Below, one piece after another: positions 9,867 to 41,748 of a DNA stretch of 64,000 bases. The stretch is from an uncultured Actinomycetota bacterium. GTDB lineage: Bacteria > Actinomycetota > Actinomycetes > Propionibacteriales > Propionibacteriaceae. The first letter of the stretch is position 1. Every line of letters begins with the position of its first letter. The translations under genes were made by a program, and so were the position numbers. Location of the stretch: positions 230,775 through 294,774 of the forward strand of contig CAVOPC010000003.1 of NCBI GenBank assembly GCA_963697765.1. Direction: 5' to 3'. Under the pieces are notes generated by a model. It made no database searches. It was not told the DNA's origin and was given only the letters and a program-made list of their open reading frames with translations.

Positions 9867-12667
9867 ATGTCCACCTCGGTCGAATCCGTCCGTCTCGAGT
9901 ACCAGTCGGGACGGGCGGTCCCGGTCGCCTCCCCGCGGGTCTCCTGGATCACCCGCTCCGACCTGCCCAACTGGCGGCAATCAGCCGCAGAGCTCGCCTG
10001 GGACACCGGCTCGGGGCCGGTCAGCGCGGTGCTCGACGGAGACGCGTCCGTGCTGGTCAACTGGCCCTTCGATCCGCTCGAGCCCCGAGCCGGCGGGACC
10101 CTGCGGGTGCGCGTCGAGGGTCCGGACGGGTGGAGCGACTGGAGTGCCGAGCAGGAGGTGTTCGCGTCTTTTCTGGGTCCGACGGAGTGGTCGGCCGACT
10201 TCATCGGTTTGGCTGCACCGGCACGGCACGCCCAGCCGGTGTTGTTGCGGCACGAGTTTCCGGTGGCGGAGGGTCTGGTCCGAGCCACCCTCTATGCGAC
10301 GGCGCAGGGGGTCTACCAGGCCGAGGTGAACGGCCTGGCCGTCGACGACCAGATCCTCAAGCCGGGTTGGACGCCGTATCAGTACAGGCTGATTCACGAG
10401 ACCACTGACGTCACGGGACTGCTGAGTCCTGGGGCCAATGCGCTGGGCGTGACGCTGGCCGGCGGCTGGTTCACCGAGAGTTTCGGTTTCCAGGGCCTGG
10501 CGAAGCCGTTCTACGGCAGCCAGCCGAGCTTCGCCGGCCAGATCCTGCTCGAATACAGCGACGGGCGGTCCGAGTGGGTGCGTACCGGCCCTGGCTGGTT
10601 GACCTGGTGCGACGGTCCCTGGATTACGGCCGGCATCTACGCCGGCGAAACCTACGACGCCGGCCGGCTCCCGGCCGGCTGGTCAAAGCCGGGCTTCAAC
10701 TCGGCGGGCTGGACAGCTGCCGCGTTGCTGCCCGCCGGGCCGACACCGGGCCCGCGGACGTCACCCGTGGTGCGGGTGACCGAAACGGTGCCTGTCGCTG
10801 AGGTGCTCACCACTCCTGCCGGGAAGACGGTGGTGGATTTCGGTCAGAATCTGGTGGGCCGGTTGCGGATCCGGGTCACCGGCCAAGCGGGGACCACGAT
10901 CACGCTGCGGCATGCAGAGGTGTTGGAGGACGGCGAGTTGGGCGTCCGTCCGTTGCGGGTGGCCGATGCCACCGACCGGTACACTCTGGCTGGCGACGGC
11001 GAGCGAGGAGTGGGCGCCGAGCTTCACGTTCCACGGCTTCCGCTACGCCGAGGTGGCCGGTTGGCCCGGCGACTTCGACCCCGGCGGCGATCGTGGCCGA
11101 GGTGATCGGGTCCGACATGGTGCGCACCGGCTGGTTCGACTGCTCCGATCCTTTGGTGTCGCGGCTGCACGAGAACGTGGTGTGGGGCATGCGCGGTAAC
11201 TTTCTCTACCTGCCCACCGATTGCCCGCAGCGCGACGAGCGGCTGGGCTGGACCGGCGACATCCAGGTCTTTTCCCCGACCGCCAGCTACTTGTTCGACT
11301 GCGACGGCTTCCTGGCCTCGTGGCTGGTCGATCTGGCCCTGGAGCAGCAGCACGCCGGCGGCGTGCCGTTCATCGTGCCGGACGTGCTCGATTCGGCGAA
11401 GATTCCGGCCGCCGCCTGGGGCGACGCCGCCGTCATCGTGCCCTGGGTGCTGCACGAACGGTTCGCCGACCGCGACATACTCGCCATCCAGTACTCGTCA
11501 ATGAAGGCCTGGGTCGAGCAGTTGCTGGCCCTGGCCGGCGAACGGCACCTGTGGGAAGGCGGCTTCCAGTTCGGTGACTGGGTGGACCCGGACGCGCCGC
11601 CCGACCTGCCCGGCAAAGCCAAGGCCGACGCCGACCTGGTCGCCACCGCCTACCTCTACCGGTCCACCGACCTACTCGCCCGCACCGCAGCTTTGCTCCA
11701 ACACACCGACGACGCCGACCACTACACGGCTGCGGCTGAACAGATCCGGAAGGCCTGGCTGAACGAATACGTCACTCCCGCCGGACGGATCCTGTCCGAC
11801 GCCCAAACCGCCCACGCACTCGCCATCGAGTTCGGCATCGCCACCAACGACCTGGCCCAACGGATGGGTGACCGGCTCGCCTATCTCGCCCGCCGTGATG
11901 GCTACCGGATCAGCACCGGCTTCGTCGGCACCCCGCTCGTCACCGACGCCCTCACCCACACCGGCCACCACCGCGAGGCCGGCCGGATGCTCCAACAGAC
12001 CGAATGCCCGTCCTGGCTCTACCCGGTCACCATGGGAGCGACCACCATCTGGGAACGCTGGGACTCCCTGCTCCCCGACGGCACCATCAACTCAGGCGAA
12101 ATGACCAGCTTCAACCACTACGCCCTCGGCGCCGTCGCCGACTGGCTCCACCGCAGCGTCGGCGGGCTGGCCCCCAACGAACCGGGCTACCGGAAGCTGT
12201 CCATCGCCCCGCAACCGTTGCCCGGCCTCGAGTGGGCCACCACCAGCCACGACACCCCGTACGGACGAGCAGCGGTGGCCTGGCGCCGCAACGCCGGGTC
12301 CATCGAGATCACCGCGACCGTGCCGGCCAACACCACAGCCGACGTCCACCTTCCGGATGGCCGGACGTTCGAGGTCGGCTCCGGTGACCACGAGTGGGCG
12401 GTCACCGCACCCGATCCCGAACCCCATCAGGAGCTCACCACGTCCAGTTCGCTGGCGATGATCATGGACGATCCCGACGCCTACCGCACCGTACTGGACG
12501 CGTTCGCCCGGATCGATCCCGAGGTGAGCACGGACTTCCGCCGGCGGATGGCCTGGGTGCCCAACCAACCACTGTTCGGCACCTTCAGCCTGATCTCGCC
12601 CGCCGTGGTCGACGAGGTCGAGCGCAGCCTGGCCGAACTGAACCGAAGCCGAGGCTTGCCCGAATGA
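9867..12667 (+). pseudogene. Alpha-L-rhamnosidase (GH78), split by two frame breaks about 75 nt apart
   Basis: Track ORFs 9867..11105 and 11093..12667 carry GH78 N- and C-terminal parts (C-terminal part: YLPTDCPQRDERLGWTGD, ATTIWERWDS). The conserved bridge EEWAPSFTFHGFRYAEVAGWPGDFDP is only in a third frame (ORF 10912..11199). The frames run 0 -> 1 near 11001-11005 and 1 -> 2 near 11075-11082. Confidence 0.8.
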
Positions 12668-16392: not shown

Positions 16393-16899
16393 TCAGTTGG
16401 ACGCCTGGCGGGCCCGCACCCGATCCAGTGCGCCGATCATGGCGCGGGCGCCGCGGCAGAGCAGCTCCAGCTCGTCGGTGCTGAGTTCGCTCGCGACCAC
16501 GCCGAACGCACGCTCGAACATCGAGTCCATCTGGCGCATCACGTCCAGCCCCGCTTCCGTGGGATGCAGGCGGCGGAACCGCCGGTCGTCCGGATCATCG
16601 ATCCGGGTGACCAGTCCCTTCTCAGCCAGCCGATCCACCAGGCCACTGGCCGTCGGGGCGCTCACCCCGAGAAGGGCACCGAGTTCCTGGTGCGAGATGC
16701 CCGTCTGCTTCACCACATGGCCGAGCACCCGGAGCTGCTGAATGGTCAGGTCGGGCGGCATCGGCAAACCAACCAGTCCGACGGCCCGATCGTGCACCTG
16801 CGCGTTCAACTGCAGCAGTTCGGCGGCCAACGCGGAACGCTCGGCGTCGAGGTCCCGGTTCTGCGCAGACGGCATGGGGATCGCTTTCTGGAACGGCAA
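16393..16899 (-). CDS. MarR family transcriptional regulator
   Basis: The winged-helix core is LTIQQLRVLGHVVKQTGISHQELGALLGVSAPTASGLVDRLAEKGLVTRIDDPDDRR. The start could instead be ATG 16875. It is divergent from the RND pump gene. Confidence 0.88.
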   Translation of the reverse strand: MPFQKAIPMPSAQNRDLDAERSALAAELLQLNAQVHDRAVGLVGLPMPPDLTIQQLRVLGHVVKQTGISHQELGALLGVSAPTASGLVDRLAEKGLVTRIDDPDDRRFRRLHPTEAGLDVMRQMDSMFERAFGVVASELSTDELELLCRGARAMIGALDRVRARQASN

Positions 16900-16901
16900 A
16901 T

Positions 16902-16920
16902 AGTTAGAGCTATGCTAACT
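16902..16920. promoter_or_regulatory. Inverted repeat AGTTAG-N7-CTAACT in the marR / RND divergent intergenic region
   Basis: Read directly: tAGTTAGagctatgCTAACTg. It is AT-rich relative to its surroundings and is positioned like a MarR operator. Confidence 0.5.
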
Positions 16921-16976: not shown

Positions 16977-19900
16977 TTGATCCGCCTGACCAAGCTCAGC
17001 CTGGCCAACCGCACGGTGGCGCTGCTGCTCAGCCTGCTGGCCATCGGCCTGGGCGTCTATGCCACCACCGCGCTCAAGCAGGAGTTGATCCCGTCGATCG
17101 ACGTGCCCCGCGGCAACGTGGTCGCCGTGTACCAGGGCGCCAGCCCGGACGTGGTCGAGGCCCAGGTTTCCAAGCCGATCGAGTCCGCGGTCAAGGCGGT
17201 GGACGGGGTGACCTCCGTCACCTCGACCAGTTCCAGCGGCATTTCGCAGGTGTCGGTGCAGTGGGACTACGGCATCGCCGCCGACGACATGGCCACCAAA
17301 CTGCGCAGCGCGATCGACTCGATCTCGGGCGGGCTGCCGGCCAACGTCGACCCGACCGTGATCACCGGCGGCACCGACGACATTCCAGTGGCGGTGCTGG
17401 CACTGTCCTCCGACGAAGACCTCAACACGCTCTCCGAGCAGGTCACCGACACCGTCACCCCGGAGTTGAAGTCGATTCCCGGCGTCCGCGACGTGACGGT
17501 CTCGGGCAAGGAAGTGCACGAGATCGTCATCACGTACAAGCAGTCCAAGCTGACCGAGTACGGCGTCGATCCGACCACCATCCCCCAATTTTTCGCCGCG
17601 AACTCGAGCGCGATCCCGTCCGGCACCATGCGCACCGACACCTCCAATGTGGACGTGCAGACCGGCACCACGTTCAGCACCACCGACGAGATCGCCAACC
17701 TGCGCCTGCAGGGCACGGACGGGCCGGTGAGGCTCGGCGACCTGGCCACTGTCAAGGAACAGCCGGTGGCCACCACCAGCATCTCCCGCGTCGACGGACG
17801 TGAGTCGCTGACCATCGCCATCACCAAGACCCCGGACGCGAACACCGTCACCGTGGCCCACGGCATCGCCGACAAGCTGCCTGAGCTGGAGAAGACGCTC
17901 GGTAACAACGCCAAGTTCGTCACGGTGTTCGACCAGGCCCCCTATATCGAGCAGTCCGTGCACGACCTGACCGTCGAGGGCGGCATCGGGTTGGCCATGG
18001 CGGTGCTGGTGATCCTGCTCTTTCTGCGCTCGATCCGGCCGACGCTGATCACGGCGATCTCGATTCCGCTGTCGTTGCTGATCGCCCTGATCGGCCTGTG
18101 GCTCGGCGGCTACACCCTCAACATCCTCACTCTGGCCGCGCTGACCGTTGCGATCGGACGCGTCGTCGACGACTCGATCGTGGTGATCGAGAACATCAAG
18201 CGACACCAGAGCTATGGCGAGTTCGGCACCAAATCGATCACCGGCGCCGTCCGCGAGGTCGCCGGGGCGGTGACCTCCTCGACGCTGACCACGGTCGCGG
18301 TGTTCCTGCCGATCGGTCTGGTCGGCGGCCAGGCGGGCGAGATCTTCCGTCCCTTCGCGGTCGCGGCCGTGGTGGCCCTGCTCGCGTCGCTGGTGGTGTC
18401 GCTGACCGTGGTGCCGGTGTTCGCGTCCTGGTTCATGCGACCGACAGCCAAGCAGGTGTCCAAGCTCGCTGCCGAGCACGAGTCCGAAGCCAAGGACAGC
18501 TGGCTGCAGAAGGGCTACCTGCCGGTGCTCAACTGGACCTTGGCGCACCGTTGGCTGACCCTGCTGATGGCGTTGCTGGTGTTCGCCGGGACGGTGGCGC
18601 TGGTCCCGCGGCTGAAGACGGACTTCATCGGCAGCATGGGAACCGAGAGCCTCGCCATCAAACAGGAGTTGCCACCCGGCACGGGGTTGAACGAGACCGA
18701 CAAGGCCGCCGCCCAGATCGAGGCGCTGTTGGCCGCCGACCCGTCCGTGCTGACCTACTCGACCAGTGTCGGCAGCGGAACCTCGGCGGCGCTGCTGTCC
18801 GCCCGATCGGACACCAACGAGGCCAGGTTCACCGTTCCGCTGAAGCCCGGCAGCGACGCAACCGAAACCGCCGACCGGCTGCGCCAGCAGATCGCCGAAC
18901 TCGGCTCCGACGTCGGCGAGGTCGAGGTGTCGATCGGCGCCGGCAATTCCAGCAGCGGCGTGGTGGTGTACGTGGAGAGCTCGGACCCCGACCAACTCGA
19001 GGCCGCCAACGCCTCTGTGCTGACCATGATGCAGGGCATTCCCGGCCTGACCAACGTGACCAGCGACCTGGCCGAGGCCCGCGACATGCTCGCCGTGAAC
19101 GTCAACGAGGGCAAGGCCGCCGACCAGGGCATGACCCAGGCGTCCATCGGTCAGGCGGTGGCCCGCGCCGTCCAGGGGCAGCTGATGGGCACCCTCGCTC
19201 AGGGCGACACCACCCTCAACGTGTACCTGCGGTCGCAGGCGCCGGTGCAGAACATCGACGAGCTGCGCCAGATCAAGCTGCCCGTCACCCAACTGCAGAA
19301 CGCCAACGCCAAGTCGGACGCCGCCGACAAGGTGACGGCCCGCTCCGACACGTTCTCAGCCCAATCGAAGCAGCAGCAGAGCGACGCCTACAACGACCAG
19401 GTCGCGGCATTGGAAAAGAGCCGGTCGCAGGCAGTGAAGGCGCAGGCGGCGCTGACCAAGCAGCTCGATCAGGCAAAAGAGCGGCTGTCCAGCCTGCAGA
19501 AGCAGCTGGCCGCCGCCATCAAGGCGTGCTCCGCTCCGGTGATCCCGCCGGCCGCCCCCGCCCCGGGCTGCTACCCCACGCCGATCTCGGTGTTCCAGAT
19601 CAGCCAGCAGTTGTCGGCCACGGGCGCTCAGGTGGCCCAGTTGAGCGCCGCCCTGGTCCAGACCAAGACGGGCGTGGCGAGCGTCGACAAGCAGCTGGAC
19701 GCCCTGTCGGAGCAGCGCACCAAGTCCCTGGACGCGCAGGACACCCAGGAGGAGCTGGCCCAGGCCGGAAAGGACGCGGCCAAGGCGACCGCCGACCCGT
19801 TGCGGCTCAAAGACGTCGCCTCGGTGAAGATGGTGCAGGCGCCGTCGACGATCACCCGGGTGAACGGCGTGCAGGCGGCGACCATCTCGGGCAGTTCGGA

Positions 19901-20576
19901 GTCGTCCGACCTCGGGGCGACAACCGCCGCGATCACCACGGGTGTGGCGAGTCTGGACCTGCCGGGCGGCGTGACGGTGCGGATCGGCGGGGTGTCGCAG
20001 CAGCAGCAGGAATCGTTCGCCCAACTCGGGTTGGCGATGATGGTCGCGGTCGCCGTGGTGTACCTGATCATGGTGGCCACCTTCGGGTCGCTGCTGCAGC
20101 CGCTCATCCTGCTGGTGTCGATTCCGTTCGCCGCCACCGGCGCCCTGGGGTTGTCACTGATCACCGACACGCCGTTGAGCATTGCGAGCATGATCGGCCT
20201 GTTGATGCTGATCGGCATCGTGGTGACCAACGCGATCGTGCTGATCGACCTGATCAACCAGAAGCGAAAATCGGGGTCGGGCGTGGACGCGTCCATTCAG
20301 GCGGGTGCCCGGCTGCGGGTGCGTCCGATCATGATGACGGCGTTGGCCACCATCTTCGCCCTGGTGCCGATGGCGCTGGGCCTGACCGGCGGCGGGGTGT
20401 TCATCTCCAAACCGCTGGCGATCGTCGTGATCGGCGGGCTGGTGTCGTCGACATTGCTGACCCTGATCCTGGTTCCGGTGCTCTACGACCTGCTGGAGAC
20501 CTCGCGCGAGAACGGCCGCACCAAGCGGTCGGCGCGGCGCGAGGCCAAGGCTGCGCAGCCGGCCCCTTCCGCCTGA
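16977..20576 (+). CDS. RND superfamily efflux permease (AcrB/HAE-like, 12 TM) with a ~170-aa coiled-coil insert in the second large external loop
   Basis: 1199 aa with a TTG start. The N-terminal TM1 and porter-domain pattern, and the conserved TM4/TM10 regions (AIGRVVDDSIVVIENI; GIVVTNAIVLIDLINQ), are RND-like. Residues ~772-940 are Q/A/K-rich helices with no counterpart in canonical ~1040-aa AcrB. Confidence 0.88.
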   Translation: MIRLTKLSLANRTVALLLSLLAIGLGVYATTALKQELIPSIDVPRGNVVAVYQGASPDVVEAQVSKPIESAVKAVDGVTSVTSTSSSGISQVSVQWDYGIAADDMATKLRSAIDSISGGLPANVDPTVITGGTDDIPVAVLALSSDEDLNTLSEQVTDTVTPELKSIPGVRDVTVSGKEVHEIVITYKQSKLTEYGVDPTTIPQFFAANSSAIPSGTMRTDTSNVDVQTGTTFSTTDEIANLRLQGTDGPVRLGDLATVKEQPVATTSISRVDGRESLTIAITKTPDANTVTVAHGIADKLPELEKTLGNNAKFVTVFDQAPYIEQSVHDLTVEGGIGLAMAVLVILLFLRSIRPTLITAISIPLSLLIALIGLWLGGYTLNILTLAALTVAIGRVVDDSIVVIENIKRHQSYGEFGTKSITGAVREVAGAVTSSTLTTVAVFLPIGLVGGQAGEIFRPFAVAAVVALLASLVVSLTVVPVFASWFMRPTAKQVSKLAAEHESEAKDSWLQKGYLPVLNWTLAHRWLTLLMALLVFAGTVALVPRLKTDFIGSMGTESLAIKQELPPGTGLNETDKAAAQIEALLAADPSVLTYSTSVGSGTSAALLSARSDTNEARFTVPLKPGSDATETADRLRQQIAELGSDVGEVEVSIGAGNSSSGVVVYVESSDPDQLEAANASVLTMMQGIPGLTNVTSDLAEARDMLAVNVNEGKAADQGMTQASIGQAVARAVQGQLMGTLAQGDTTLNVYLRSQAPVQNIDELRQIKLPVTQLQNANAKSDAADKVTARSDTFSAQSKQQQSDAYNDQVAALEKSRSQAVKAQAALTKQLDQAKERLSSLQKQLAAAIKACSAPVIPPAAPAPGCYPTPISVFQISQQLSATGAQVAQLSAALVQTKTGVASVDKQLDALSEQRTKSLDAQDTQEELAQAGKDAAKATADPLRLKDVASVKMVQAPSTITRVNGVQAATISGSSESSDLGATTAAITTGVASLDLPGGVTVRIGGVSQQQQESFAQLGLAMMVAVAVVYLIMVATFGSLLQPLILLVSIPFAATGALGLSLITDTPLSIASMIGLLMLIGIVVTNAIVLIDLINQKRKSGSGVDASIQAGARLRVRPIMMTALATIFALVPMALGLTGGGVFISKPLAIVVIGGLVSSTLLTLILVPVLYDLLETSRENGRTKRSARREAKAAQPAPSA

Positions 20577-20719: not shown

Positions 20720-21232
20720 ATGGTTCCAGCCCAGCCCGGCGATACCGCGGCACCCGAGGAGCGTCATGAGACGCCTGCCGAGCGGCTGGACCGAAACTGG
20801 TCGGAGTTGCTGCAGGAGCTTCGGGTCACCCAGACCGGCATCCAGATCCTGACCGGATTTCTGCTGATCCTGCCGTTCCAGGCCAGGTTCGCGACCGTCA
20901 GCCCCTTTCTCGTCGGCGTGTTTCTGGCCGCGGTGCTCTTCGCGGCGCTGGCGACCGCCCTGGTGCTGGCGCCGGTGGCCGCCCACCGGTTGCTCTTCCG
21001 GCGGCACGAGAAGGACGTGCTGGTGAACCTCGGGGGCGCGATGGCCAAGGCCGGCCTGATCTGCCTGGCACTCACCGTCGGGTTGGTCGCCACCCTCGTG
21101 GTCGGCGTGGTGGCGAGTGAAACCGCTGGCATCGTCACCGGTATCTGCGCGCTGCTGGTGTTCGCCCTGCTGTGGGTGGTGGTTCCCCTCAGCCTGTCGC
21201 GCCGCGAGCGGGCCAGGCACCCGTACGTGTGA
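20720..21232 (+). CDS. DUF6328-like integral membrane protein
   Basis: 170 aa. ERLDRNWSELLQELRVTQTGIQILTGFLLILPFQARF plus three further TM helices matches my recollection of the DUF6328 family signature. Confidence 0.5.
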   Translation: MVPAQPGDTAAPEERHETPAERLDRNWSELLQELRVTQTGIQILTGFLLILPFQARFATVSPFLVGVFLAAVLFAALATALVLAPVAAHRLLFRRHEKDVLVNLGGAMAKAGLICLALTVGLVATLVVGVVASETAGIVTGICALLVFALLWVVVPLSLSRRERARHPYV

Positions 21233-21259: not shown

Positions 21260-22267
21260 TTGCACGCCATGCCTCGCCTGCGCCGGGTCACGCCCGACTC
21301 TCACGGATGGTCGCGCCGCCCCCACGGCAAGGGTTTTCGCTACATCGACGAGCACGGCAAGAGCCTCGCCGCAGCTGACGTCGAACGGATCAAGGCCCTG
21401 GCGATTCCGCCGGCGTGGCGGGATGTGTGGATCTGCCCGGTGGCCAACGGTCACCTGCAGGCGACCGGCGTGGACGTGGCCGGCCGGCGCCAGTATCTCT
21501 ACCACCCGCACTGGCGAATACTGCGCGACAAGCTCAAGTTCGACCGGGTGGCGACCTCCGCCCTGCAGCTGCCCCAGGCCCGACGCAAGGTGGCCGCCGA
21601 CCTGGCCCAGGACGGTATGCCGCTGGAGCGGGCCGCGGCGACCGCCGTCCGGCTGCTCGATCTCGGTTACTTCAGGATCGGCAACGACTACTACGCCGAT
21701 GCCAACGGTTCCTTCGGCCTGACCACGCTGGAGCGCCGCCACGTCCGCCGGCACGGTGGCGGCATGGCCTTTCAGTTCGTCGGCAAGTCGGGCATCGAGC
21801 ACCACGTCGTCATCGACGACGAACCCGTGCTCGAGGCCCTGCAGCAGATGCGCAAGCGTCGCGGAGGCGACCGGCTGCTCGCCTACCGGCAGGGCTCGCA
21901 ATGGATCGACCTCGCTTCCGGAACGGTGAACGCCTACCTCGCGGAACTGTTCGGCGGCGACTTCACGGCCAAGGACTTCCGCACCTGGCACGCCACCGTG
22001 TTGTTCGCGGCGGCCCTGGCCACTGCACCAAAGGCGACCACCAAGACCGCGAAGGCGAGGACGGTGCGCGCCGCGGTGGGAGAGGTCGCCAGCTATCTGG
22101 GAAATACCCCCACCGTCGCCCGGGGGTCCTATATCGACCCACGGCTGATCGACCTGTACGAGTCGGGCTCGACGATCGCCGAGGCTGCCGGACGCGCCTA
22201 CCGCACGAAGACGGCGCGGCAGCAGGCACTGGAGCGGGCCGTCCTGGAGTTGCTGGAGGTCGGATAG
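21260..22267 (+). CDS. DNA topoisomerase IB (bacterial poxvirus-like type IB)
   Basis: 335 aa. LRRVTPDSHGWSRRPHGKGFRYIDEHGKSL...IPPAWRDVWICPVANGHLQATGVDVAGRRQYLYHPHWR, with C-terminal catalytic-region motifs (FTAKDFRTWHAT; GNTPTVARGSYIDP containing the Tyr). Confidence 0.85.
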   Translation: MHAMPRLRRVTPDSHGWSRRPHGKGFRYIDEHGKSLAAADVERIKALAIPPAWRDVWICPVANGHLQATGVDVAGRRQYLYHPHWRILRDKLKFDRVATSALQLPQARRKVAADLAQDGMPLERAAATAVRLLDLGYFRIGNDYYADANGSFGLTTLERRHVRRHGGGMAFQFVGKSGIEHHVVIDDEPVLEALQQMRKRRGGDRLLAYRQGSQWIDLASGTVNAYLAELFGGDFTAKDFRTWHATVLFAAALATAPKATTKTAKARTVRAAVGEVASYLGNTPTVARGSYIDPRLIDLYESGSTIAEAAGRAYRTKTARQQALERAVLELLEVG

Positions 22268-34442: not shown

Positions 34443-37148
34443 CTATTCAGCCGGGTCGGGCTCACCGCCCGGATCGGCGCCGGGCTGGTCCGGACGGGAC
34501 CCGGCCTCCAGTGCGGGAACCTGGATGAAGGGCAGGATCCCGAGCATCAGCAGGCAGGCTGCCCCGTACAGCAGATACAGGTCGCGGAACCCCTCGTTGA
34601 GAGTGGTCTGGTACGTCGCCTGCAGTTGCGGGCCACGGGCGTCGATCTCGGCCAGGTAGTCGGCCCGCGCCTGCTGGAACGCGGCGGGCACGGCCGCGTT
34701 CAGCACCTTGAGTTGACGTGTGGTCTCCGCAATCTCGCTGCGCGCGTCGGTGATCTCGGCGCGTGCAGCAACCAGCGAGCTTCGGGCGTGGGTCAGCTCC
34801 GAGCGCTTCCGCGTCAGGGTGGTTCGGGCGGCCAGCAGCTTGTCCCGTGCGCCGATCAGCTTGGCGCGCGCCGTGGCCAGTTCGGCCCGCTGGGTCCGCA
34901 GGTCGGCGCGCTTGGCGATCAGCGTGGTGCGCTGTGAGCTCAGCGCGGTTCGGGCGGCCGCCAGGTCGGCTCGCTGGTCGGCCAGTGTCGAGCGCTTACC
35001 GCTCAACGCGGCCCGCTTGGCAAGCAGTGGCGTCCGCTCCGCGACTCGTTCGGCCCGCTGCTGCTCGAGTGCGGCGATCGACTTCTGCAGGGCCTCGATC
35101 TGCGGCTGCAGGGCGGGGTCGCCCGCTGCCTGCAGGTGCGAAAGGGCCGCCCGCTGCTCGGCCAGGCCTCGATCGATGCCGTCGATCGCGGCGTCGAGTC
35201 CGGCGATCGGCTGACTGACCCCTGCGATCGCCGCATCAAGTCCGGTCAGGCCCTTGTCCATACCGGTGATGCCGCGCGTCATCGAGGCCCGGGCGGCGGT
35301 CATCTTTGTGATGCCGGTGGTCATTCCGTCGATGCCGCTGGTCATGCCGCGGATGCCGGACGACATCCGGGTGATCGTCGTACCCATCGACGCAAGAGCG
35401 CGGTCCATCTTTGCGATGCCCTTGGACATGCCGGCGATTCCCTTGGACATCTTCAGGATCGATTTGGTCATCGTCGCCTGGGTCTTGGCCAGCTTGGCGT
35501 CCACGGTGCCCAACTGTGTGACACCGGTTTCGACTCCACCCTGGATGTCGGCGATCACCGACGGCGTCTGGTTGTCGTACATGCGGTCGGCGACGGTCTT
35601 TGTGGCGGCCACGATGGTGGTCACGTCCGCGTTCTTCAGCAGCGTGACCAGGTCGTCCGGCAGGGTGCCGTCACCGTCGGCGGAGACGCTGATGGTGGAC
35701 TGCGCGGTCAGGTCGGGGAACTCCACACCCTTCAGCGCATCGGCGAACCGGTCGTCCGCCTTCCAGTCGGCGAACCGTTTCTGCAGGGTGGCGGCGTAGG
35801 GCAGTTCCGGTGCCGTGATGGTGGTCGGCAGGTCCGCCGTCAGCCGGTCCTGCAGGGCCAGCCCGGCGTGGGCCAGAAAGCCGACCATGATGACCGGGGC
35901 GAGCGTGGTGCCGATCGAACGGACGAGCGACAGAGTGCCGAGCGCCGAGGCCGACTCCTTGGCGGGAGTCAGCCGCAGCATCAGGTAGTTCAGCGGAGAG
36001 CCGATGATGAACCCAAGGCCGAGCCCGATCAACACCAGCGTGACGATCACGCTGGCCAGGCTGAGCGTGGGCAGCAGCCACGCAATGGCGCTGACGGCAG
36101 CCAGGGCGGAGATGGCGGCGCCGGTGCCGAGCACCCGCTTCGGGCCGAACGCGTCGGTCAGCCGTCCGGACAGCGGTGCACCGATGCCCGAGGCCAGGCC
36201 GAGGATGATGACCAGGTAGCCACCGCTGCCGCTGGGCAACTTCAGGGCGTTCTCGGCCAGTTGCGGAACGAAGACCACCCCCATCAGCACGAAACCCGAG
36301 AGCAGTGACAGCAGCAGGGTCAGGGCCACCGAACGGTCGGTGAAGTAGCCGAGGTTCAGGACGGGGTCGGCCGCCCGGCGTTCGGCCAGGATGAAGAGTG
36401 GTATCAGCACGGCCACGGCCACCAGCCACGGATACACCCCCACCGACCGCACGCTGGTGACCACGTCGAAGAAGTCCAGGTTGGTCAGCCCGTACAACAG
36501 GCACATGATGATGCCGACCAGTAACGCGGTTCCGATCAGGTCCATCGGGGCCACGTTGGCCCGGCGGTGGTCGGGCAGGACCACCAGGCCCAGCGCCACG
36601 ATGCCGATTGCGATCGGCACGTTGATGTAGAAGATCCACTGCCAGTTGTGTGTTCCCGCGACGCTCAGGATCAGGCTGCCCGCCGAGGCGCCCAACAGGT
36701 TCGCGATGCCGAACACGGCCCCGACCAGGCCCAGCGCCATGCCGCGCCGCTGGGGTGGCACCTGGGTGCCGATCTCCGCGGTCGCGATCGGCAGGATGCC
36801 GCCGCCGCCGATCGCCTGGATCACCCGCGCCACGACCAGCATGCCGAAACTGCCGGCGTCCTGCGAGAGCCCGCAGAGCAGCGATCCGAGGCCGAACAGG
36901 GCGATCGCGGTCAGGTACACGGGCTTGCGGCCGAGCCGGTCGGCAAGCTTGCCCATCACCGGGATGGCTGCGGCGTAGGCGAGGGTGTAGACGGTGATCA
37001 GCCAGACACTGAGTTGCTCGCCGACGCCGAGGTCGGTGGCGATGACGGTGCGGGCCGGTGTGACGATGCCGGTGTCGATGGCACCCATGAAGATGCCCAG
37101 CAGGTACAGCGTGATGGCGAGCGGCCAGTTGCCGCGCAGTGACTTCAT
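34443..37148 (-). CDS. DHA2-type (14-TM) MFS efflux transporter with a ~420-aa heptad-repeat insert between TM13 and TM14
   Basis: 901 aa. Residues 1-430 contain 13 hydrophobic helices with MFS motifs (GKLADRLGRKPVY; VARVIQAIGGGG). The final helix, LYLLYGAACLLMLGILPFI, is at 857-876. Residues ~432-855 are non-membrane and helical. The start overlaps the marR stop (ATGA). Confidence 0.88.
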   Translation of the reverse strand: MKSLRGNWPLAITLYLLGIFMGAIDTGIVTPARTVIATDLGVGEQLSVWLITVYTLAYAAAIPVMGKLADRLGRKPVYLTAIALFGLGSLLCGLSQDAGSFGMLVVARVIQAIGGGGILPIATAEIGTQVPPQRRGMALGLVGAVFGIANLLGASAGSLILSVAGTHNWQWIFYINVPIAIGIVALGLVVLPDHRRANVAPMDLIGTALLVGIIMCLLYGLTNLDFFDVVTSVRSVGVYPWLVAVAVLIPLFILAERRAADPVLNLGYFTDRSVALTLLLSLLSGFVLMGVVFVPQLAENALKLPSGSGGYLVIILGLASGIGAPLSGRLTDAFGPKRVLGTGAAISALAAVSAIAWLLPTLSLASVIVTLVLIGLGLGFIIGSPLNYLMLRLTPAKESASALGTLSLVRSIGTTLAPVIMVGFLAHAGLALQDRLTADLPTTITAPELPYAATLQKRFADWKADDRFADALKGVEFPDLTAQSTISVSADGDGTLPDDLVTLLKNADVTTIVAATKTVADRMYDNQTPSVIADIQGGVETGVTQLGTVDAKLAKTQATMTKSILKMSKGIAGMSKGIAKMDRALASMGTTITRMSSGIRGMTSGIDGMTTGITKMTAARASMTRGITGMDKGLTGLDAAIAGVSQPIAGLDAAIDGIDRGLAEQRAALSHLQAAGDPALQPQIEALQKSIAALEQQRAERVAERTPLLAKRAALSGKRSTLADQRADLAAARTALSSQRTTLIAKRADLRTQRAELATARAKLIGARDKLLAARTTLTRKRSELTHARSSLVAARAEITDARSEIAETTRQLKVLNAAVPAAFQQARADYLAEIDARGPQLQATYQTTLNEGFRDLYLLYGAACLLMLGILPFIQVPALEAGSRPDQPGADPGGEPDPAE
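34725..35471 (-). repeat. Two in-frame arrays of 21-nt (heptad) tandem repeats inside the MFS gene
   Basis: Array 1 (35157-35471, aa 560-664) has 15 heptads: MTKSILK MSKGIAG MSKGIAK MDRALAS MGTTITR MSSGIRG MTSGIDG MTTGITK MTAARAS MTRGITG MDKGLTG LDAAIAG VSQPIAG LDAAIDG IDRGLAE. Array 2 (34725-35018, aa 711-808) has 14 heptads: KRAALSG KRSTLAD QRADLAA ARTALSS QRTTLIA KRADLRT QRAELAT ARAKLIG ARDKLLA ARTTLTR KRSELTH ARSSLVA ARAEITD ARSEIAE. Confidence 0.9.
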
Positions 37149-37633
37149 GCCCGGCTCCCCCGCTCGGGATCGCGCAGCTGGTCGTCAAACCGTCCCAGCG
37201 CCTGGTTGACGACGCCTAGGACCCGGACGCACGCCGCCAGGTCGGCGTCGGGAAAGTCCCTTAGCGCCTCGGAGTGCAGAGTGCCCAGCGGGGTGAAGAA
37301 GTTTCTGGCCACCTCGTGGCCGTGTTCGCCGAAGCGCAGGACGACGGTACGTCGATCCGTCTGACCCCGCTCGCGGTACACGTGACCGGCGGTGGACAGC
37401 CGGTCCACGGCATAGGTGACGGCGGCTGGGGTGAGGTCGAGTTCGCCGGCCAACTGCCGCAGGGTCAGCGGCGCCCCGGCCCGGTCGGCGGCGTAGATGG
37501 CGGTGAGGGCGCGGAAGTCGGTGGGGTGCAGGCCATGGCGCGAGGCGAAGCTATGGCCCAGCCGTTCGGAGGACCAGCCCACATCACGCACCAGCTCAGC
37601 CAGCCGTCGTTCAAGGTCTCTGCGTTCCATCAC
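37145..37633 (-). CDS. MarR family transcriptional regulator (first gene of the marR-MFS operon)
   Basis: 162 aa. The winged helix is TDFRALTAIYAADRAGAPLTLRQLAGELDLTPAAVTYAVDRLSTAGHVYRERGQTDRR. Its stop overlaps the MFS start. Confidence 0.9.
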   Translation of the reverse strand: MMERRDLERRLAELVRDVGWSSERLGHSFASRHGLHPTDFRALTAIYAADRAGAPLTLRQLAGELDLTPAAVTYAVDRLSTAGHVYRERGQTDRRTVVLRFGEHGHEVARNFFTPLGTLHSEALRDFPDADLAACVRVLGVVNQALGRFDDQLRDPERGSRA

Positions 37634-40060: not shown

Positions 40061-40525
40061 TCAGCGGGGGACGATACCTGGAATCTCGTCGCGAAGTCGG
40101 TCGGTGACGGTACGCATGCGCTCGAGGACGACGCCCATGGACGCAAGCACGGCGTCGTCCACACCGTCGAACACCATGCCGGCGGTCGCGACAAGCGGTG
40201 CGTAGTAGGCGTAGGTGGTGCGGGATCCCTCGGCGGTGAACCGCACCAGAACCTTGCGCCGGTCGCCCTCGTCCGCGCTGCGCTCCACCCACCCGCGGGC
40301 AGCGAGCCGGTCGATGAGAGCCGTGGTGGCCGCCGGCCGCAGCCCCGTCGACGCGGCGAGTTCTCCGGCCGTCGCCGGCCCTTCGGCGAGGCGGTCCAGG
40401 CAACGCACCTCTGCGGAGCCTAGGCCCAGGGCGCGGCCGACGGCGTCGTCGTAGGCGTGCACCGCGCGCTGGTAGCGCTGCAGCTCGACGCCCAGGTTTG
40501 CGATGAGTTGAGTACGTTGCGACAT
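40061..40525 (-). CDS. MarR family transcriptional regulator
   Basis: EVRCLDRLAEGPATAGELAASTGLRPAATTALIDRLAARGWVERSADEGDRRKV. I prefer the start at ATG 40525 (MSQRTQL) because it leaves the palindrome in the intergenic region. Confidence 0.85.
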   Translation of the reverse strand: MSQRTQLIANLGVELQRYQRAVHAYDDAVGRALGLGSAEVRCLDRLAEGPATAGELAASTGLRPAATTALIDRLAARGWVERSADEGDRRKVLVRFTAEGSRTTYAYYAPLVATAGMVFDGVDDAVLASMGVVLERMRTVTDRLRDEIPGIVPR

Positions 40526-40534
40526 GTGGTATCT

Positions 40535-40547
40535 TTCGATCATCGAA
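40535..40547. promoter_or_regulatory. Perfect 13-bp palindrome TTCGAT-C-ATCGAA between divergent marR and the monooxygenase gene
   Basis: Read directly in the short (~47 nt) divergent intergenic region. It is a likely MarR operator. Confidence 0.55.
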
Positions 40548-40572
40548 CTATTTGGAAATCGTAGGAGTTGCC

Positions 40573-41748
40573 ATGAGGATAGTCGTCGTCGGCGCCGGTG
40601 TAGCCGGATCCGCGGTTGCGCTGGCCGCTGCCCGCGTCGGGCACGAGGTGATCCTTCTCGAACGCCGCCCCTCGCTCGACGCGAAGGCGGGCTCGTGGAT
40701 CACCCTGGCGCCCAACGGCCTTGACGCGCTCGACGTGCTCGGCGTCAGTGACGATTGGAGCGAGGGCGGCGCGCCGACCCGGGCGAACCGGATGTTCGAC
40801 GCTCGCGACAGGCTGCTCGGCGAGGTCACGATCGGCACGCCGCTCGTGGACGGCCGGGTGGGCCTCACCATCCGGCGTTCCGCCCTGTCGACGTGCCTCG
40901 CTCGACAGGCCGCGGCTGTCGGGGCGGAACTGCGGCTGGGGGCAGTCGTCGAAGCGGTCGAGCTGGACGGCCCGCGGCCCGCGGCGATCGTCGCGGGAGA
41001 ACGAATCGAGGCCGACCTACTGATCGGTGCCGACGGTGTCTGGTCACGCGTCCGACGGGCGATCGATCCGGCTGCCCCGGTCCCGAGGTATACCGGGCTG
41101 CTCAACTTCGGCGGCATCGTGGACGCCCCTGAACTCGCCCGATCGCTCGAGCCCGCGGCGTGGCACTTCGTCTTCGGCACCCGGGCGTTCGTCGGGGCAC
41201 ATCCGCTGCCGACGGGTGAAATCGTCTGGTTCGTGAATCTGCCGGGAGACCTCGTCCCGACGAAGGAGCGCTCCACGACATCGGACGACGTCTGGCGCGA
41301 GCGACTGCTCGAGGCCGTGCGGGAAGACCAGGGCGTCGCCGCTGAGTTGATCCGTCGCGGACGGTTCGAACTTGTGGCCGACAGCACGCACGACCTGCCC
41401 ACCGTTCCCATCTGGTCGCGCGGTGGTGCGGTGCTCATCGGAGACGCGGTGCACGCGCCCTCGCCAAGCTCGGGTCAGGGGGCGTCGCTGGCGCTAGAGG
41501 ACGCCGTCGAACTCGTCCGGGCCCTCGGGTCAGCGTCGAATCCGGACGAACGGGACTCAGCGCTGGCAGCGTTCGAGGCGACGCGACGTCCCCGGGTCGA
41601 GCGCGTCGTGCGCAATGGCGCCCGGTCCGGCAGTTCGAAGCTGCCGACCGGAGTCGGGCGGGTGCTCATGGACGGAATGCTCACGCTGCTGTTCCGTTCC
41701 GGATTCGCCGCGCGCGAGGTGCTGGCGACCACCGCACACCGGCTCTAG
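40573..41748 (+). CDS. FAD-dependent monooxygenase (salicylate/aromatic hydroxylase-like)
   Basis: ATG 40573. The dinucleotide-binding motif is MRIVVVGAGVAGSAVALAAARVGHEV, followed by the later motifs ADLLIGADGVWSRVR and LIGDAVHAPSPSSGQGASLALEDA. Confidence 0.88.
   Translation: MRIVVVGAGVAGSAVALAAARVGHEVILLERRPSLDAKAGSWITLAPNGLDALDVLGVSDDWSEGGAPTRANRMFDARDRLLGEVTIGTPLVDGRVGLTIRRSALSTCLARQAAAVGAELRLGAVVEAVELDGPRPAAIVAGERIEADLLIGADGVWSRVRRAIDPAAPVPRYTGLLNFGGIVDAPELARSLEPAAWHFVFGTRAFVGAHPLPTGEIVWFVNLPGDLVPTKERSTTSDDVWRERLLEAVREDQGVAAELIRRGRFELVADSTHDLPTVPIWSRGGAVLIGDAVHAPSPSSGQGASLALEDAVELVRALGSASNPDERDSALAAFEATRRPRVERVVRNGARSGSSKLPTGVGRVLMDGMLTLLFRSGFAAREVLATTAHRL

What the first reader, a model, noticed from the sequence alone, without database searches (positions are those of the whole stretch)
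19290..19796. RND pump with a ~170-aa two-helix insert and a Cys-bracketed proline-rich tip in its second external loop
**What the sequence shows**
- The protein is 1199 aa, versus about 1040 aa for canonical AcrB-type pumps.
- The extra sequence interrupts an otherwise contiguous porter/docking-domain motif: ...DELRQIKLPV [insert] ADPLRLKDVASVKMVQAPSTITRVNG...
- The insert has two Q/A/K/L-rich helical stretches, about aa 783-850 and 873-938.
- They are joined by C851-SAPVIPPAAPAPG-C865-YPTPIS.

**Inference**
- Two cysteines flanking a Pro-rich loop look like a disulfide-stapled hairpin tip.
- No membrane-fusion-protein or outer-membrane-factor gene is adjacent.
- The insert could therefore act as a built-in adaptor or stalk, about 10 nm long if helical.
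- This would be analogous to the periplasmic coiled-coil extensions reported for some MmpL-type transporters.
Basis: partly seen in the sequence, partly recalled or inferred. Interest (0 to 1): 0.65.

Follow-up and report, generated by a model that had tools for sequence, protein, structure and literature searches.

The report
AcrB-type pump with built-in coiled-coil stalk
A drug/lipid efflux pump of a Gram-positive actinobacterium carries a conserved, roughly 11-nm two-helix stalk grafted onto the spot where Gram-negative pumps dock their outer-membrane duct; this resembles the stalk recently found in the tuberculosis pump MmpL5, but sits in a different pump family and in a cell with no outer membrane.

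Summary
**Observation: confirmed.** ORF 16977-20576 (+) encodes a 1199-aa AcrB-type RND pump.
- About 165 extra residues (aa 772-940) replace the three-residue tip of the AcrB DC docking β-hairpin (AcrB D795-Q797).
- AlphaFold2 predicts two long helices, aa 772-851 and 870-935. In the insert-only model pLDDT reaches 96-98.
- They are joined by the loop C851-SAPVIPPAAPAPG-C865.
- The distal half has a clean a/d heptad seam.

**Conservation**
- All 120 closest homologues (64-100 % identity; Propionibacteriales) have a 152-179-aa insert here.
- 11 more distant representative clusters, some from Microbacteriaceae, have one too.
- The cysteines are both present (88) or both absent (32), never single. 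In 77 of those proteins they are the only cysteines.

**Context**
- The only conserved neighbour is a divergent MarR gene.
- No adaptor, outer-membrane-factor or MmpS gene was found in the window.

**Interpretation**
- Best reading: a rigid stalk or duct, often disulfide-stapled at its tip, projecting from the funnel into the wall zone.
- It is functionally analogous to the MmpL4/5/10 coiled coil but shows no detectable sequence relation to it and is inserted at a different point.
- Whether the trimer forms a tube could not be tested.

**Verdict:** new variant of a known kind, moderately high interest.

The parts
16393..16899 (-). MarR-family regulator, divergently transcribed from the pump gene
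   Evidence: PF12802 MarR_2 E 5.7e-15 and PF01047 MarR E 3.1e-12. A divergent MarR gene is the only neighbour conserved in Propionicimonas paludicola (L001) and Nigerium (L002).
16902..16920 (.). Candidate MarR operator, AGTTAG-N7-CTAACT, in the 77-bp intergenic region
   Evidence: Read directly from the sequence. L001 has GGTTAG-N7-CTAACC followed by the same GATG at the equivalent place. L002 matches only partly. The repeat tool did not report it because the arms are 6 bp.
16977..20576 (+). RND permease gene, 1199 aa, AcrB/ACR_tran type
   Evidence: PF00873 E 3.4e-212. Foldseek best hit is AcrD 8f4r_B, E 1.8e-63, TM 0.80 normalised by target. GC3 is 0.93. The proton-relay residues equivalent to AcrB D407, D408, R971 and T978 are kept as D398, D399, R1114 and T1121.
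19260..19289 (+). Ascending strand of the DC docking hairpin (aa 762-771, ELRQIKLPVT)
   Evidence: Aligns to AcrB ...DDIGDWYVRAA794. L768, P769 and T771 are invariant in 120 homologues.
19290..19526 (+). Helix 1 of the coiled-coil hairpin (aa 772-850)
   Evidence: DSSP helix 772-849 and 772-851. There is a 3-4 spaced hydrophobic seam from Y805 to L844. Q808 is invariant.
19527..19583 (+). Tip loop: C851-SAPVIPPAAPAPG-C865-YPTP (aa 851-869), Pro-rich and Cys-bracketed
   Evidence: Sequence. pLDDT is 67-70 in the insert-only model. The Cys pair co-occurs strictly. Relatives carry tip motifs such as C-x2-[DN]P-x-[DN]P-x-C or NPNPxDP.
19584..19781 (+). Helix 2 of the hairpin (aa 870-935), with a possible kink at 910-913
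   Evidence: DSSP helices 869-909 plus 914-935, or one helix 870-935. Mean hydrophobicity is 3.7 at heptad a positions and 2.9 at d positions; all other positions are at or below 0.13. Q906 is invariant and R914 nearly so.
19797..19844 (+). Descending strand of the DC docking hairpin (aa 941-956, PLRLKDVASVKMVQAP)
   Evidence: Aligns to AcrB M798-V799-P800-FSAFSS.... L944, A948 and V950 are invariant.

Best explanation
**What it is**
- The gene encodes a stand-alone, MarR-controlled, proton-driven AcrB-type RND exporter of a monoderm actinobacterium (Propionibacteriales, near Micropruina).
- A ~165-residue antiparallel coiled-coil hairpin has been grafted onto the tip of the β-hairpin of its C-terminal docking (funnel) subdomain. 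In E. coli AcrB this is one of the two hairpins that face TolC.

**Geometry**
- Two helices of about 80 and 66 residues run out and back, giving roughly 10-12 nm.
- They are closed by a Pro-rich turn. In most lineages this turn is stapled by a disulfide between the protein's only two cysteines.
- AcrB-type pumps are trimers, so three such hairpins should rise from the rim of the funnel.
- The tips would then lie about 18 nm above the membrane, across the Gram-positive inner wall zone and at the inner face of the peptidoglycan.

**Proposed function (inferred)**
- The hairpins act as a built-in extension that carries or guides exported hydrophobic or amphiphilic substrates away from the membrane into the wall.
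- Alternatively, they keep the exit open against the wall. This would do in one polypeptide what the coiled-coil domain does in MmpL4/5/10.

**Shown versus inferred**
- Shown: the insertion point, the helical hairpin prediction, the heptads, conservation, Cys co-variation and the lack of partner genes nearby.
- Inferred: the trimer, the disulfide bond itself, the reach into the wall, and the duct or stalk role.
For: **Core fold**
- AcrB-type by Pfam and Foldseek.
- AcrB D407, D408, R971, T978 and N941 equivalents are conserved.

**Insertion point**
- q771 aligns to AcrB A794 and q941 to AcrB M798, so the insert replaces D795-G796-Q797.
- These β-hairpins cross-link to TolC, and deleting them loses TolC from the complex (review PMC4446572).

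**Hairpin structure**
- AF2 insert-only model: pLDDT 85.4, with blocks of 96-98 in both helices.
- The full-length model gives the same helices.
- The best structural analogues are long antiparallel hairpins:
  - Vipp1/PspA, rmsd 2.7 Å over 128 columns
  - Rad50 and Smc coiled coils
  - the colicin E3 R-domain
  - the MFP LipC
- Hydrophobicity periodicity is 3.45-3.6 residues, with an a/d seam.

**Conservation**
- 120 of 120 close homologues have an insert of 152-179 aa.
- 11 of 133 distant representatives have one of 148-186 aa.
- Named members come from Propionibacteriales and Microbacteriaceae.
- Q808 and Q906 are invariant in all 120 homologues and in the 87-sequence alignment A1; A934 is also invariant.

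**Cysteine pair**
- 88 homologues have both, 32 have neither, none has one.
- 77 proteins have exactly these two cysteines and no others.
- There are at least 15 paired gains or losses on an NJ tree.

**No partner genes**
- No MFP, OMF or MmpS gene among 40 window ORFs or in two other genomes; only MarR is conserved.

**Precedent and wall-directed relatives**
- The MmpL5 coiled coil with a C591-C597 tip disulfide is essential and is modelled as a 13-nm tube, with its tip about 18 nm from the membrane domain (PMC12501195).
- The MmpL10 coiled coil forms a trimeric tube (PMC12183618).
- Relatives carry other wall-directed modules at the symmetric DN tip, including LysM.
Against: - No multimer model or coordinates were available, so tube versus three separate stalks is undecided.
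- The distal heptads show a single a/d seam. That is enough for a two-helix coiled coil and gives no positive sign of a six-helix barrel.
- The proximal ~30 residues of each arm contain only 8 % large hydrophobic residues and 33-37 % charged residues.
- The full-length model is only moderate: pLDDT 69, pTM 0.49.
- The Cys pair is missing in 27 % of close homologues and in 10 of 11 distant ones, so the staple is dispensable.
- The residue equivalent to AcrB K940 is Thr, so the proton relay is not canonical.
- Substrate, expression and oligomeric state are unknown.
Confidence: 0.6

Rival explanations
1. Wall anchor or spacer rather than conduit. The three hairpins stay separate and act as rigid legs. 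They would position the pump under the peptidoglycan, bind wall polymers, or keep the wall from occluding the funnel mouth, while substrates simply diffuse out of the funnel.
For: - There is only one hydrophobic seam per helix.
- Related pumps carry a LysM peptidoglycan-binding domain (P0193 31 bits, P0251 22 bits; cutoff 20.9) at the symmetric DN hairpin tip. Others carry Pro/Thr/Ser/Gly-rich segments there, which resemble wall-spanning linkers.
- DN-tip and DC-tip inserts are mutually exclusive among 133 representatives. That suggests interchangeable wall-directed appendages.
Against: - No recognisable wall-binding motif occurs in this insert: 0 NCBIfam families and only generic coiled-coil matches in the PDB.
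- The closest functional precedent, MmpL5/MmpL10, is modelled as a tube.
Confidence: 0.22
2. Partner-docking platform. The hairpin recruits an unlinked extracytoplasmic protein, such as a lipoprotein, a wall enzyme or a carrier. This would parallel SwrC with MeeY, or MmpL5 with MmpS5/Rv0455c.
For: - The tip motifs are conserved: [DN]P-x-[DN]P, with or without the cysteines.
- The membrane-proximal third is polar but is the best conserved part: A782, V786, K798, A804, Y805, Q808, R914, L918, Q921, K932, A934.
- The literature reports accessory partners for SwrC (bioRxiv 10.64898/2026.08.10.744025) and for MmpL5.
Against: - No gene other than MarR is conserved next to the pump in three genomes.
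- The tip sequence and length vary widely within the family: 6 to about 25 residues between the cysteines.
Confidence: 0.13
3. Functionally neutral, tolerated insertion, either low-complexity or disordered, or an assembly or annotation artefact.
For: - The same hairpin tips tolerate very diverse, often low-complexity inserts in relatives.
- The window probably comes from a metagenome-assembled genome, and at least one nearby gene looks frameshifted.
Against: - It is one uninterrupted ORF with GC3 of 0.93.
- Insert length stays at 152-179 aa down to 64 % identity.
- There are invariant residues inside the insert.
- The heptad pattern is clear and pLDDT reaches 96-98.
- The cysteines change only as a pair.
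Confidence: 0.05

Closest known systems
Coiled-coil domain of cluster-I MmpL transporters (M. tuberculosis MmpL4/MmpL5, M. smegmatis MmpL10 and MSMEG_1382)
   Same: - Both are RND-superfamily pumps of Actinomycetota.
- Both have an antiparallel coiled-coil hairpin of about 170-200 aa in the second (C-terminal) extracytoplasmic loop.
- Both have a Cys pair at the tip; in MmpL5 the C591-C597 disulfide was shown by mass spectrometry.
- The estimated reach is similar, about 18 nm from the membrane domain.
   Different: - The pump family differs: here ACR_tran scores 707 bits and MMPL 39 bits, and the fold matches AcrB-type chains.
- In MmpL4 the coiled coil sits where AcrB has its funnel domain, so it takes that domain's place (PMC11850643). 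Here the funnel subdomain is kept and the coiled coil sprouts from its hairpin tip.
- No sequence similarity is detectable; there are no MmpL hits at E ≤ 10 with either the sequence or the profile.
- No MmpS partner gene is present.
- The host has no mycomembrane.
- There is no methionine-lined pattern.
E. coli AcrB and other HAE1 RND pumps (AcrD, MdtB, MexB, AdeB, CusA)
   Same: - 12-TM core, porter and docking domains.
- D407, D408, R971, T978 and N941 equivalents are kept.
- The DN inter-protomer loop region aligns.
   Different: - There are 165 extra residues at D795-Q797.
- The K940 equivalent is Thr.
- No MFP or OMF is present.
- NCBIfam subfamily scores fall far below the curated cut-offs (best 601.7 against 1250).
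- The aromatic residues of the AcrB distal pocket (F178, F615, F617, F628) are not kept.
Gram-positive AcrB-like pumps SwrC/YerP (B. subtilis, surfactin) and FemT (S. aureus)
   Same: - They are monoderm hosts with AcrB-like predicted structures and docking domains but no outer membrane.
- They are thought to export lipids or lipopeptides.
   Different: - The paper describes both proteins as closely resembling Gram-negative pumps and does not mention any coiled coil (0 occurrences of 'coiled').
- From my own knowledge, not tested here: SwrC is about 1065 aa and is co-located with cell-envelope genes rather than MarR.
α-helical hairpin of membrane fusion proteins (AcrA, LipC)
   Same: It is a long antiparallel coiled-coil hairpin projecting from a pump towards the outer layers. 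LipC is among the structural matches, with TM 0.52 normalised by query.
   Different: - The MFP hairpin belongs to a separate lipoprotein, forms a six-hairpin ring, and docks TolC-type ducts.
- Here it is covalently part of the pump, there would be three per trimer, and no duct exists to dock.

Membership tests
RND superfamily, ACR_tran (PF00873) type | Full-length match to the AcrB/AcrD/AcrF profile, with 12 TM helices and two large loops | tested here: met
   PF00873 E 3.4e-212, 707 bits against a cutoff of 28. AF2 secondary structure shows the TM helices and two α/β loops.
RND superfamily, ACR_tran (PF00873) type | AcrB-like three-dimensional fold including porter and funnel subdomains | tested here: met
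   Foldseek best hits are AcrD, MtrD, CusA, AdeB and AcrB, E about 1e-60 to 1e-63, TM 0.75-0.82 normalised by target.
HAE1 multidrug RND permeases as curated by NCBIfam (RND_permease_1/2, TIGR00915) | Score above the curated subfamily cut-off | tested here: not met
   NF033617 601.7 against 1250; NF000282 409 against 1250; TIGR00915 362 against 940.
HAE1 multidrug RND permeases | Proton-relay residues D407, D408, K940, R971, T978 (AcrB numbering) | tested here: inconclusive
   D398, D399, R1114 and T1121 are kept, but K940 aligns to T1084. Thr occupies this position in 117 of 135 aligned sequences.
Tripartite RND efflux system | Cognate membrane fusion protein and outer membrane factor | tested here: not met
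   No HlyD/MFP or OEP family among 40 ORFs of the 64-kb window, nor in ±8 kb of two homologues. The rest of the genome was not available. The host order is monoderm (monoderm status is established knowledge).
Cluster-I MmpL transporters with a coiled-coil domain | MMPL-type core (PF03176 dominant, two porter subdomains, no funnel domain) | tested here: not met
   MMPL scores only 39 bits on aa 901-1176 against 707 bits for ACR_tran. The fold matches AcrB-type chains with funnel domains.
Cluster-I MmpL transporters with a coiled-coil domain | Coiled coil inserted in the PC subdomain at the place of the AcrB funnel domain | tested here: not met
   Here the insert lies inside the DC funnel subdomain, at AcrB 795-797. 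The MmpL4 position is from PMC11850643.
Cluster-I MmpL transporters with a coiled-coil domain | Adjacent MmpS partner gene | tested here: not met
   The neighbours are MarR, DUF6328 and TopIB; no MmpS gene.
Antiparallel coiled-coil hairpin with a disulfide-stapled tip (structural class) | Two long helices with heptad a/d seams that run out and back | tested here: met
   AF2 gives helices 772-851 and 870-935 with pLDDT up to 98. Structural analogues are antiparallel hairpins. Both ends join adjacent strands of one β-hairpin.
Antiparallel coiled-coil hairpin with a disulfide-stapled tip (structural class) | Covalent disulfide between the two tip cysteines | not testable with these tools
   Indirect support only: strict co-occurrence (88 both, 32 neither, 0 single), and these are the only cysteines in 77 proteins. 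Testing needs mass spectrometry with and without reductant.
Trimeric coiled-coil tube (as modelled for MmpL5 and MmpL10) | Six-helix barrel with a continuous lumen in the trimer | not testable with these tools
   Only monomer predictions without coordinates were available. The sequence shows a single a/d seam distally, which neither requires nor excludes a barrel.

The most novel reading that the evidence does not exclude
AcrB-type pumps of monoderm Actinomycetota evolved a single-polypeptide 'pump plus exit duct' independently of the MmpL lineage.
- Three disulfide-tipped coiled-coil hairpins, grafted on the former TolC-docking hairpins, would assemble into a tube. This tube would carry hydrophobic substrates across the inner wall zone to the peptidoglycan.
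- More generally, the two docking-hairpin tips (DN and DC) would be a hot spot where Gram-positive RND pumps plug in interchangeable wall-directed modules: coiled coil, LysM, or Pro/Thr-rich linkers.
- If so, the coiled-coil duct is not a mycomembrane adaptation. That would bear directly on the open question of what the MmpL5 tube connects to.
Probability: 0.3. Interest if true: 0.8.

Novelty: new variant of a known kind. Interest (0 to 1): 0.62.

Why it matters
**Context in the literature**
- Coiled-coil extensions on membrane transporters were first described in 2025 for MmpL4/5/10. [quoted passage not shown]
- They are discussed there as a device for reaching the mycobacterial outer membrane.

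**What this finding adds**
- The same device, down to a cysteine-bracketed tip, appears in another RND family, at another insertion point, and in bacteria that have no outer membrane.
- This argues for convergent evolution. It also points to a function tied to crossing or engaging the wall zone rather than to docking an outer-membrane partner.
- It offers simpler, non-pathogenic, cultivable systems in which to test how such stalks work, for example Propionicimonas, Microbacterium and Agromyces.
- Among the 133 nearest representative clusters, about half carry some insert at one of the two docking-hairpin tips.
- That gives a testable rule for what the 'TolC-docking' domain is used for in Gram-positive bacteria.

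Tried and rejected
**Searches that led nowhere**
- Sequence homology of the insert to MmpL coiled coils or MFP hairpins:
  - phmmer and a 29-sequence profile against the PDB gave only generic coiled-coil proteins: SlaB 8qox, Smc, tektins, designed sc-apCC.
  - So there is no evidence of common descent.
- The search for related loci with the insert alignment failed because it has no conserved 7-10-column stretch. With the single sequence it returned only 2 loci.
- The search for homologous proteins with the insert profile returned one fragment only, probably because word collection was swamped by low complexity.
- Literature searches for an AcrB-type or Gram-positive RND with a coiled coil found only Gram-negative reviews and the MmpL papers. 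This is absence of evidence within an open-access library only.

**Analyses dropped or inconclusive**
- Trimer modelling by concatenating hairpins was considered and dropped. The tool returns no coordinates or PAE, so a barrel could not be told from a bundle.
- The inverted-repeat tool found nothing in the MarR-pump intergenic region. The 6-bp-arm palindrome was read by eye.
- A charge asymmetry between the arms is seen in the close family: helix 1 distal is basic and helix 2 distal is charge-poor. It does not hold in the distant Microbacteriaceae-type members, so it was not used as evidence for a buried inner helix.
Full report
**1. Observation**
- The window has about 68 % G+C.
- It carries one uninterrupted ORF at 16977-20576 (+) of 1199 aa, with third-position G+C of 0.93.
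- The finding's coordinates, 19290-19796, are exactly codons 772-940.
- The DNA confirms two TGC codons, at 19527 and 19569, bracketing SAPVIPPAAPAPG.
- These are the only two cysteines in the protein.

**2. What the protein is**
- Pfam gives ACR_tran at E 3.4e-212. The MMPL and SecD/F matches are weak and confined to the C-terminal membrane domain.
- NCBIfam finds only sub-threshold similarity to curated RND subfamilies; the best is 601.7 bits against a cutoff of 1250.
- Against the PDB, the best relatives are MdtB, CmeB, AcrD, ZneA, MexB and AcrB, which are 1022-1069 aa long. Each aligns in two blocks that skip aa ~772-940.
- A full-length AlphaFold2 model (pLDDT 69, pTM 0.49) superposes on AcrD, MtrD, CusA, AdeB and AcrB with TM 0.75-0.82 normalised by target.
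- The AcrB proton-relay residues D407, D408, R971, T978 and N941 are conserved. K940 is replaced by Thr throughout this clade.

**3. Where the insert sits**
- I fetched E. coli acrB and added it to an alignment of 133 representatives.
- q...ELRQIKLPVT771 aligns with AcrB ...DDIGDWYVRAA794, and q P941-LRLKDVASV aligns with AcrB M798-VPFSAFSS.
- The insert therefore replaces D795-G796-Q797, the turn of the β-hairpin of the DC docking (funnel) subdomain.
- A review records three points about AcrB's TolC-docking domain (PMC4446572):
  - It carries two such β-hairpin extensions.
  - These hairpins cross-link to TolC.
- In relatives without an insert, the segment q770-q944 has a median length of 9 residues.

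**4. Shape of the insert**
- Both AF2 runs give two long helices. The full-length run gives 772-849 and 869-909 plus 914-935.
- The insert-only run used a 29-sequence alignment and gives 772-851 and 870-935. Its mean pLDDT is 85.4, 10-residue blocks reach 96-98 in both helices, and the tip is at 67-70.
- Both ends join neighbouring strands of one β-hairpin, so the helices must run antiparallel.
- Foldseek matches are, as expected for a simple hairpin, statistically weak (E > 0.2). They are nevertheless long antiparallel hairpins: Vipp1/PspA (rmsd 2.7 Å over 128 columns), Rad50 and Smc coiled coils, the colicin E3 receptor-binding hairpin, and the MFP LipC.
- Family-averaged hydrophobicity has a period of 3.45-3.6 residues.
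- In the distal half the a and d positions are strongly hydrophobic (helix 2: 3.7 and 2.9). All other positions are at or below 0.13.
- The membrane-proximal ~30 residues of each arm are polar and Ala-rich, with 8 % large hydrophobic residues. They nevertheless contain the best conserved positions.
- At about 0.15 nm per residue the hairpin is roughly 10-12 nm long.

**5. Conservation and the cysteines**
- All 120 nearest homologues (64-100 % identity, 1170-1285 aa) carry a 152-179-aa insert here.
- Named members are Micropruina, Propionicimonas and Nigerium.
- Q808 and Q906 are invariant in all 120 homologues and in the 87-sequence alignment A1. A934 is invariant too, and R914 nearly so.
- The tip has two cysteines in 88 proteins and none in 32, never one. 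In 77 proteins these are the only cysteines in about 1200 residues.
- On an NJ tree built from the rest of the protein, the pair changes state at least 15 times, always as a pair.
- This is the pattern expected for a disulfide. The bond itself is not shown.
- The spacing between the cysteines varies from 6 to about 25 residues.
- Common tip motifs are C-x2-[DN]P-x-[DN]P-x-C and, without cysteines, NPNPxDP.

**6. Wider family**
- An exhaustive search of 50 %-identity representatives gave 133 full-length relatives. Their inserts are distributed as follows:

| Insert class | Number of representatives |
|---|---|
| DC-tip insert ≥100 aa | 11 |
| DC-tip insert 30-99 aa, Pro/Gly-rich | 2 |
| DN-tip insert of 25-418 aa (q244-250 = AcrB N254-S258) | 59 |
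| No insert at either tip | 61 |
| Inserts at both tips | 0 |

- The named DC-insert representatives are Parenemella, Plantibacter, Microterricola, Microbacterium and Agromyces.
- The DN tip is the pseudo-symmetric hairpin tip in the N-terminal docking subdomain.
- DN-tip inserts are very diverse:
  - Gly/Ser/Pro/Thr-rich low-complexity segments
  - Gln/Leu coiled coils (P0147, Mobilicoccus)
  - apparent hairpins with a DPENPNE tip (P0194)
  - a bona fide LysM domain in P0193 and P0251 (31 and 22 bits; cutoff 20.9)
- The docking-hairpin tips therefore look like a general grafting site for modules that face the cell wall.

**7. Genomic context**
- Upstream and divergent lies a MarR gene, 16393-16899 (−).
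- The 77-bp spacer contains AGTTAG-N7-CTAACT.
  - A near-identical palindrome is present in Propionicimonas paludicola.
  - Only a partial match is present in a Nigerium genome.
- MarR is the only neighbour conserved in those two genomes. One of them has the Cys-containing version of the pump and the other the Cys-free version.
- Forty ORFs across the window contain no MFP, OMF or MmpS family.
- A mycothiol S-transferase fits an actinobacterial origin.
- NCBI taxonomy places Micropruina in Propionibacteriales. That the order is monoderm is established knowledge, not tested here.

**8. Mechanism**
- Shown:
  - an AcrB-type core with an intact acidic pair
  - a conserved coiled-coil hairpin at the top of the funnel subdomain
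  - paired cysteines
  - no partner genes nearby
- Inferred:
  - The pump is a trimer, as AcrB-type pumps are; the inter-protomer loop region aligns.
  - Three hairpins then rise from the funnel rim.
  - The AcrB headpiece height is about 7 nm (established knowledge). Adding it puts the tips at about 18 nm.
  - That equals the figure given for MmpL5. It is also comparable to the Gram-positive inner wall zone of about 16-22 nm (my recollection of Matias & Beveridge, not checked here).
- I favour a built-in extension that guides substrates from the funnel to the wall.
- The data do not decide between a closed tube, as modelled for MmpL5 and MmpL10, and three separate stalks.
  - The single a/d seam and the LysM-bearing cousins keep the anchor or spacer reading alive.
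  - The conserved polar base and tip motifs keep a partner-docking reading alive.
  - A neutral or artefactual insert is excluded by conservation.

**9. Comparison with known systems**
  - It is 196 aa in MmpL5.
  - It is antiparallel.
  - It has a C591-C597 tip disulfide.
  - It is essential for transport.
- It differs from the present insert in four respects:
  - the pump family
  - the insertion point. The MmpL4 coiled coil sits where AcrB has its funnel domain (PMC11850643), whereas here it grows out of a retained funnel subdomain
  - the lack of MmpS
  - the envelope type
- Neither sequence nor profile searches link the two inserts, so convergence is the economical reading.
- The paper on the characterised Gram-positive AcrB-like pumps SwrC and FemT does not mention a coiled coil.

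**10. Novelty and verdict**
- I found no description of a coiled-coil-bearing AcrB-type pump in the searchable literature. That library is incomplete.
- I rate this a new variant of a known kind.
The functional reading is plausible but untested.

Noticed in passing
window 34443-37148 (-), with MarR at 37145-37633 (-): A second MarR-linked efflux pump with a large helical module. It is a 901-aa DHA2/EmrB-type MFS transporter (TIGR00711 201 bits; the profile is covered only to position 405 of 485). A ~430-aa insert precedes the last TM helix. The insert begins with about ten Met/Gly heptads (GIxGMxx) and continues with long Ala/Arg/Leu helices. 21-nt tandem repeats lie at 35075-35114 and 35310-35359. 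By topology the loop should be extracytoplasmic. If so, two unrelated pump families in this genome carry long helical extensions.
   Followed up: partly
relatives P0193 and P0251 (representative proteins; insert after the position equivalent to window aa 250): AcrB-type pumps of 1429 and 1609 aa carry a LysM peptidoglycan-binding domain (PF01476; 31 and 22 bits, cutoff 20.9) inside a ~300-aa insert at the tip of the N-terminal (DN) docking hairpin.
   Followed up: partly
133 representative relatives of the window protein: Inserts at the DN hairpin tip (59 proteins, 25-418 aa) and at the DC hairpin tip (13 proteins) are mutually exclusive; 61 proteins have neither. P0194's DN insert looks like a coiled-coil hairpin with a DPENPNE tip, reminiscent of the NPNPxDP and DPxDP tips of the DC family.
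   Followed up: partly
window 20226-20228 (aa T1084 of the pump): The position equivalent to the essential AcrB K940 in TM10 is Thr, here and in 117 of 135 aligned relatives. D407, D408, R971 and T978 are kept. The proton relay of this Gram-positive clade may work differently.
   Followed up: no
window 16902-16920: Palindrome AGTTAG-N7-CTAACT between the MarR and pump genes. A near-identical GGTTAG-N7-CTAACC lies at the same place in Propionicimonas paludicola, and only a partial match in Nigerium. It is a likely MarR operator.
   Followed up: partly
window 9867-11105 (+) and 11093-12667 (+): An α-L-rhamnosidase is split over two overlapping ORFs in different frames. The N-terminal, Ig and concanavalin-like domains are in the first ORF; the six-hairpin catalytic and C-terminal domains are in the second. 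This is either a frameshifted pseudogene or an assembly error.
   Followed up: partly
window 20720-21232 (+) and 21260-22267 (+): Directly downstream of the pump lie a DUF6328 membrane protein (E 5e-53) and a bacterial type IB topoisomerase. Neither is conserved next to the pump in other genomes.
   Followed up: no
window 40061-40543 (-) and 40552-41748 (+): A third MarR gene in the window, divergent from an FAD-dependent monooxygenase.
   Followed up: no
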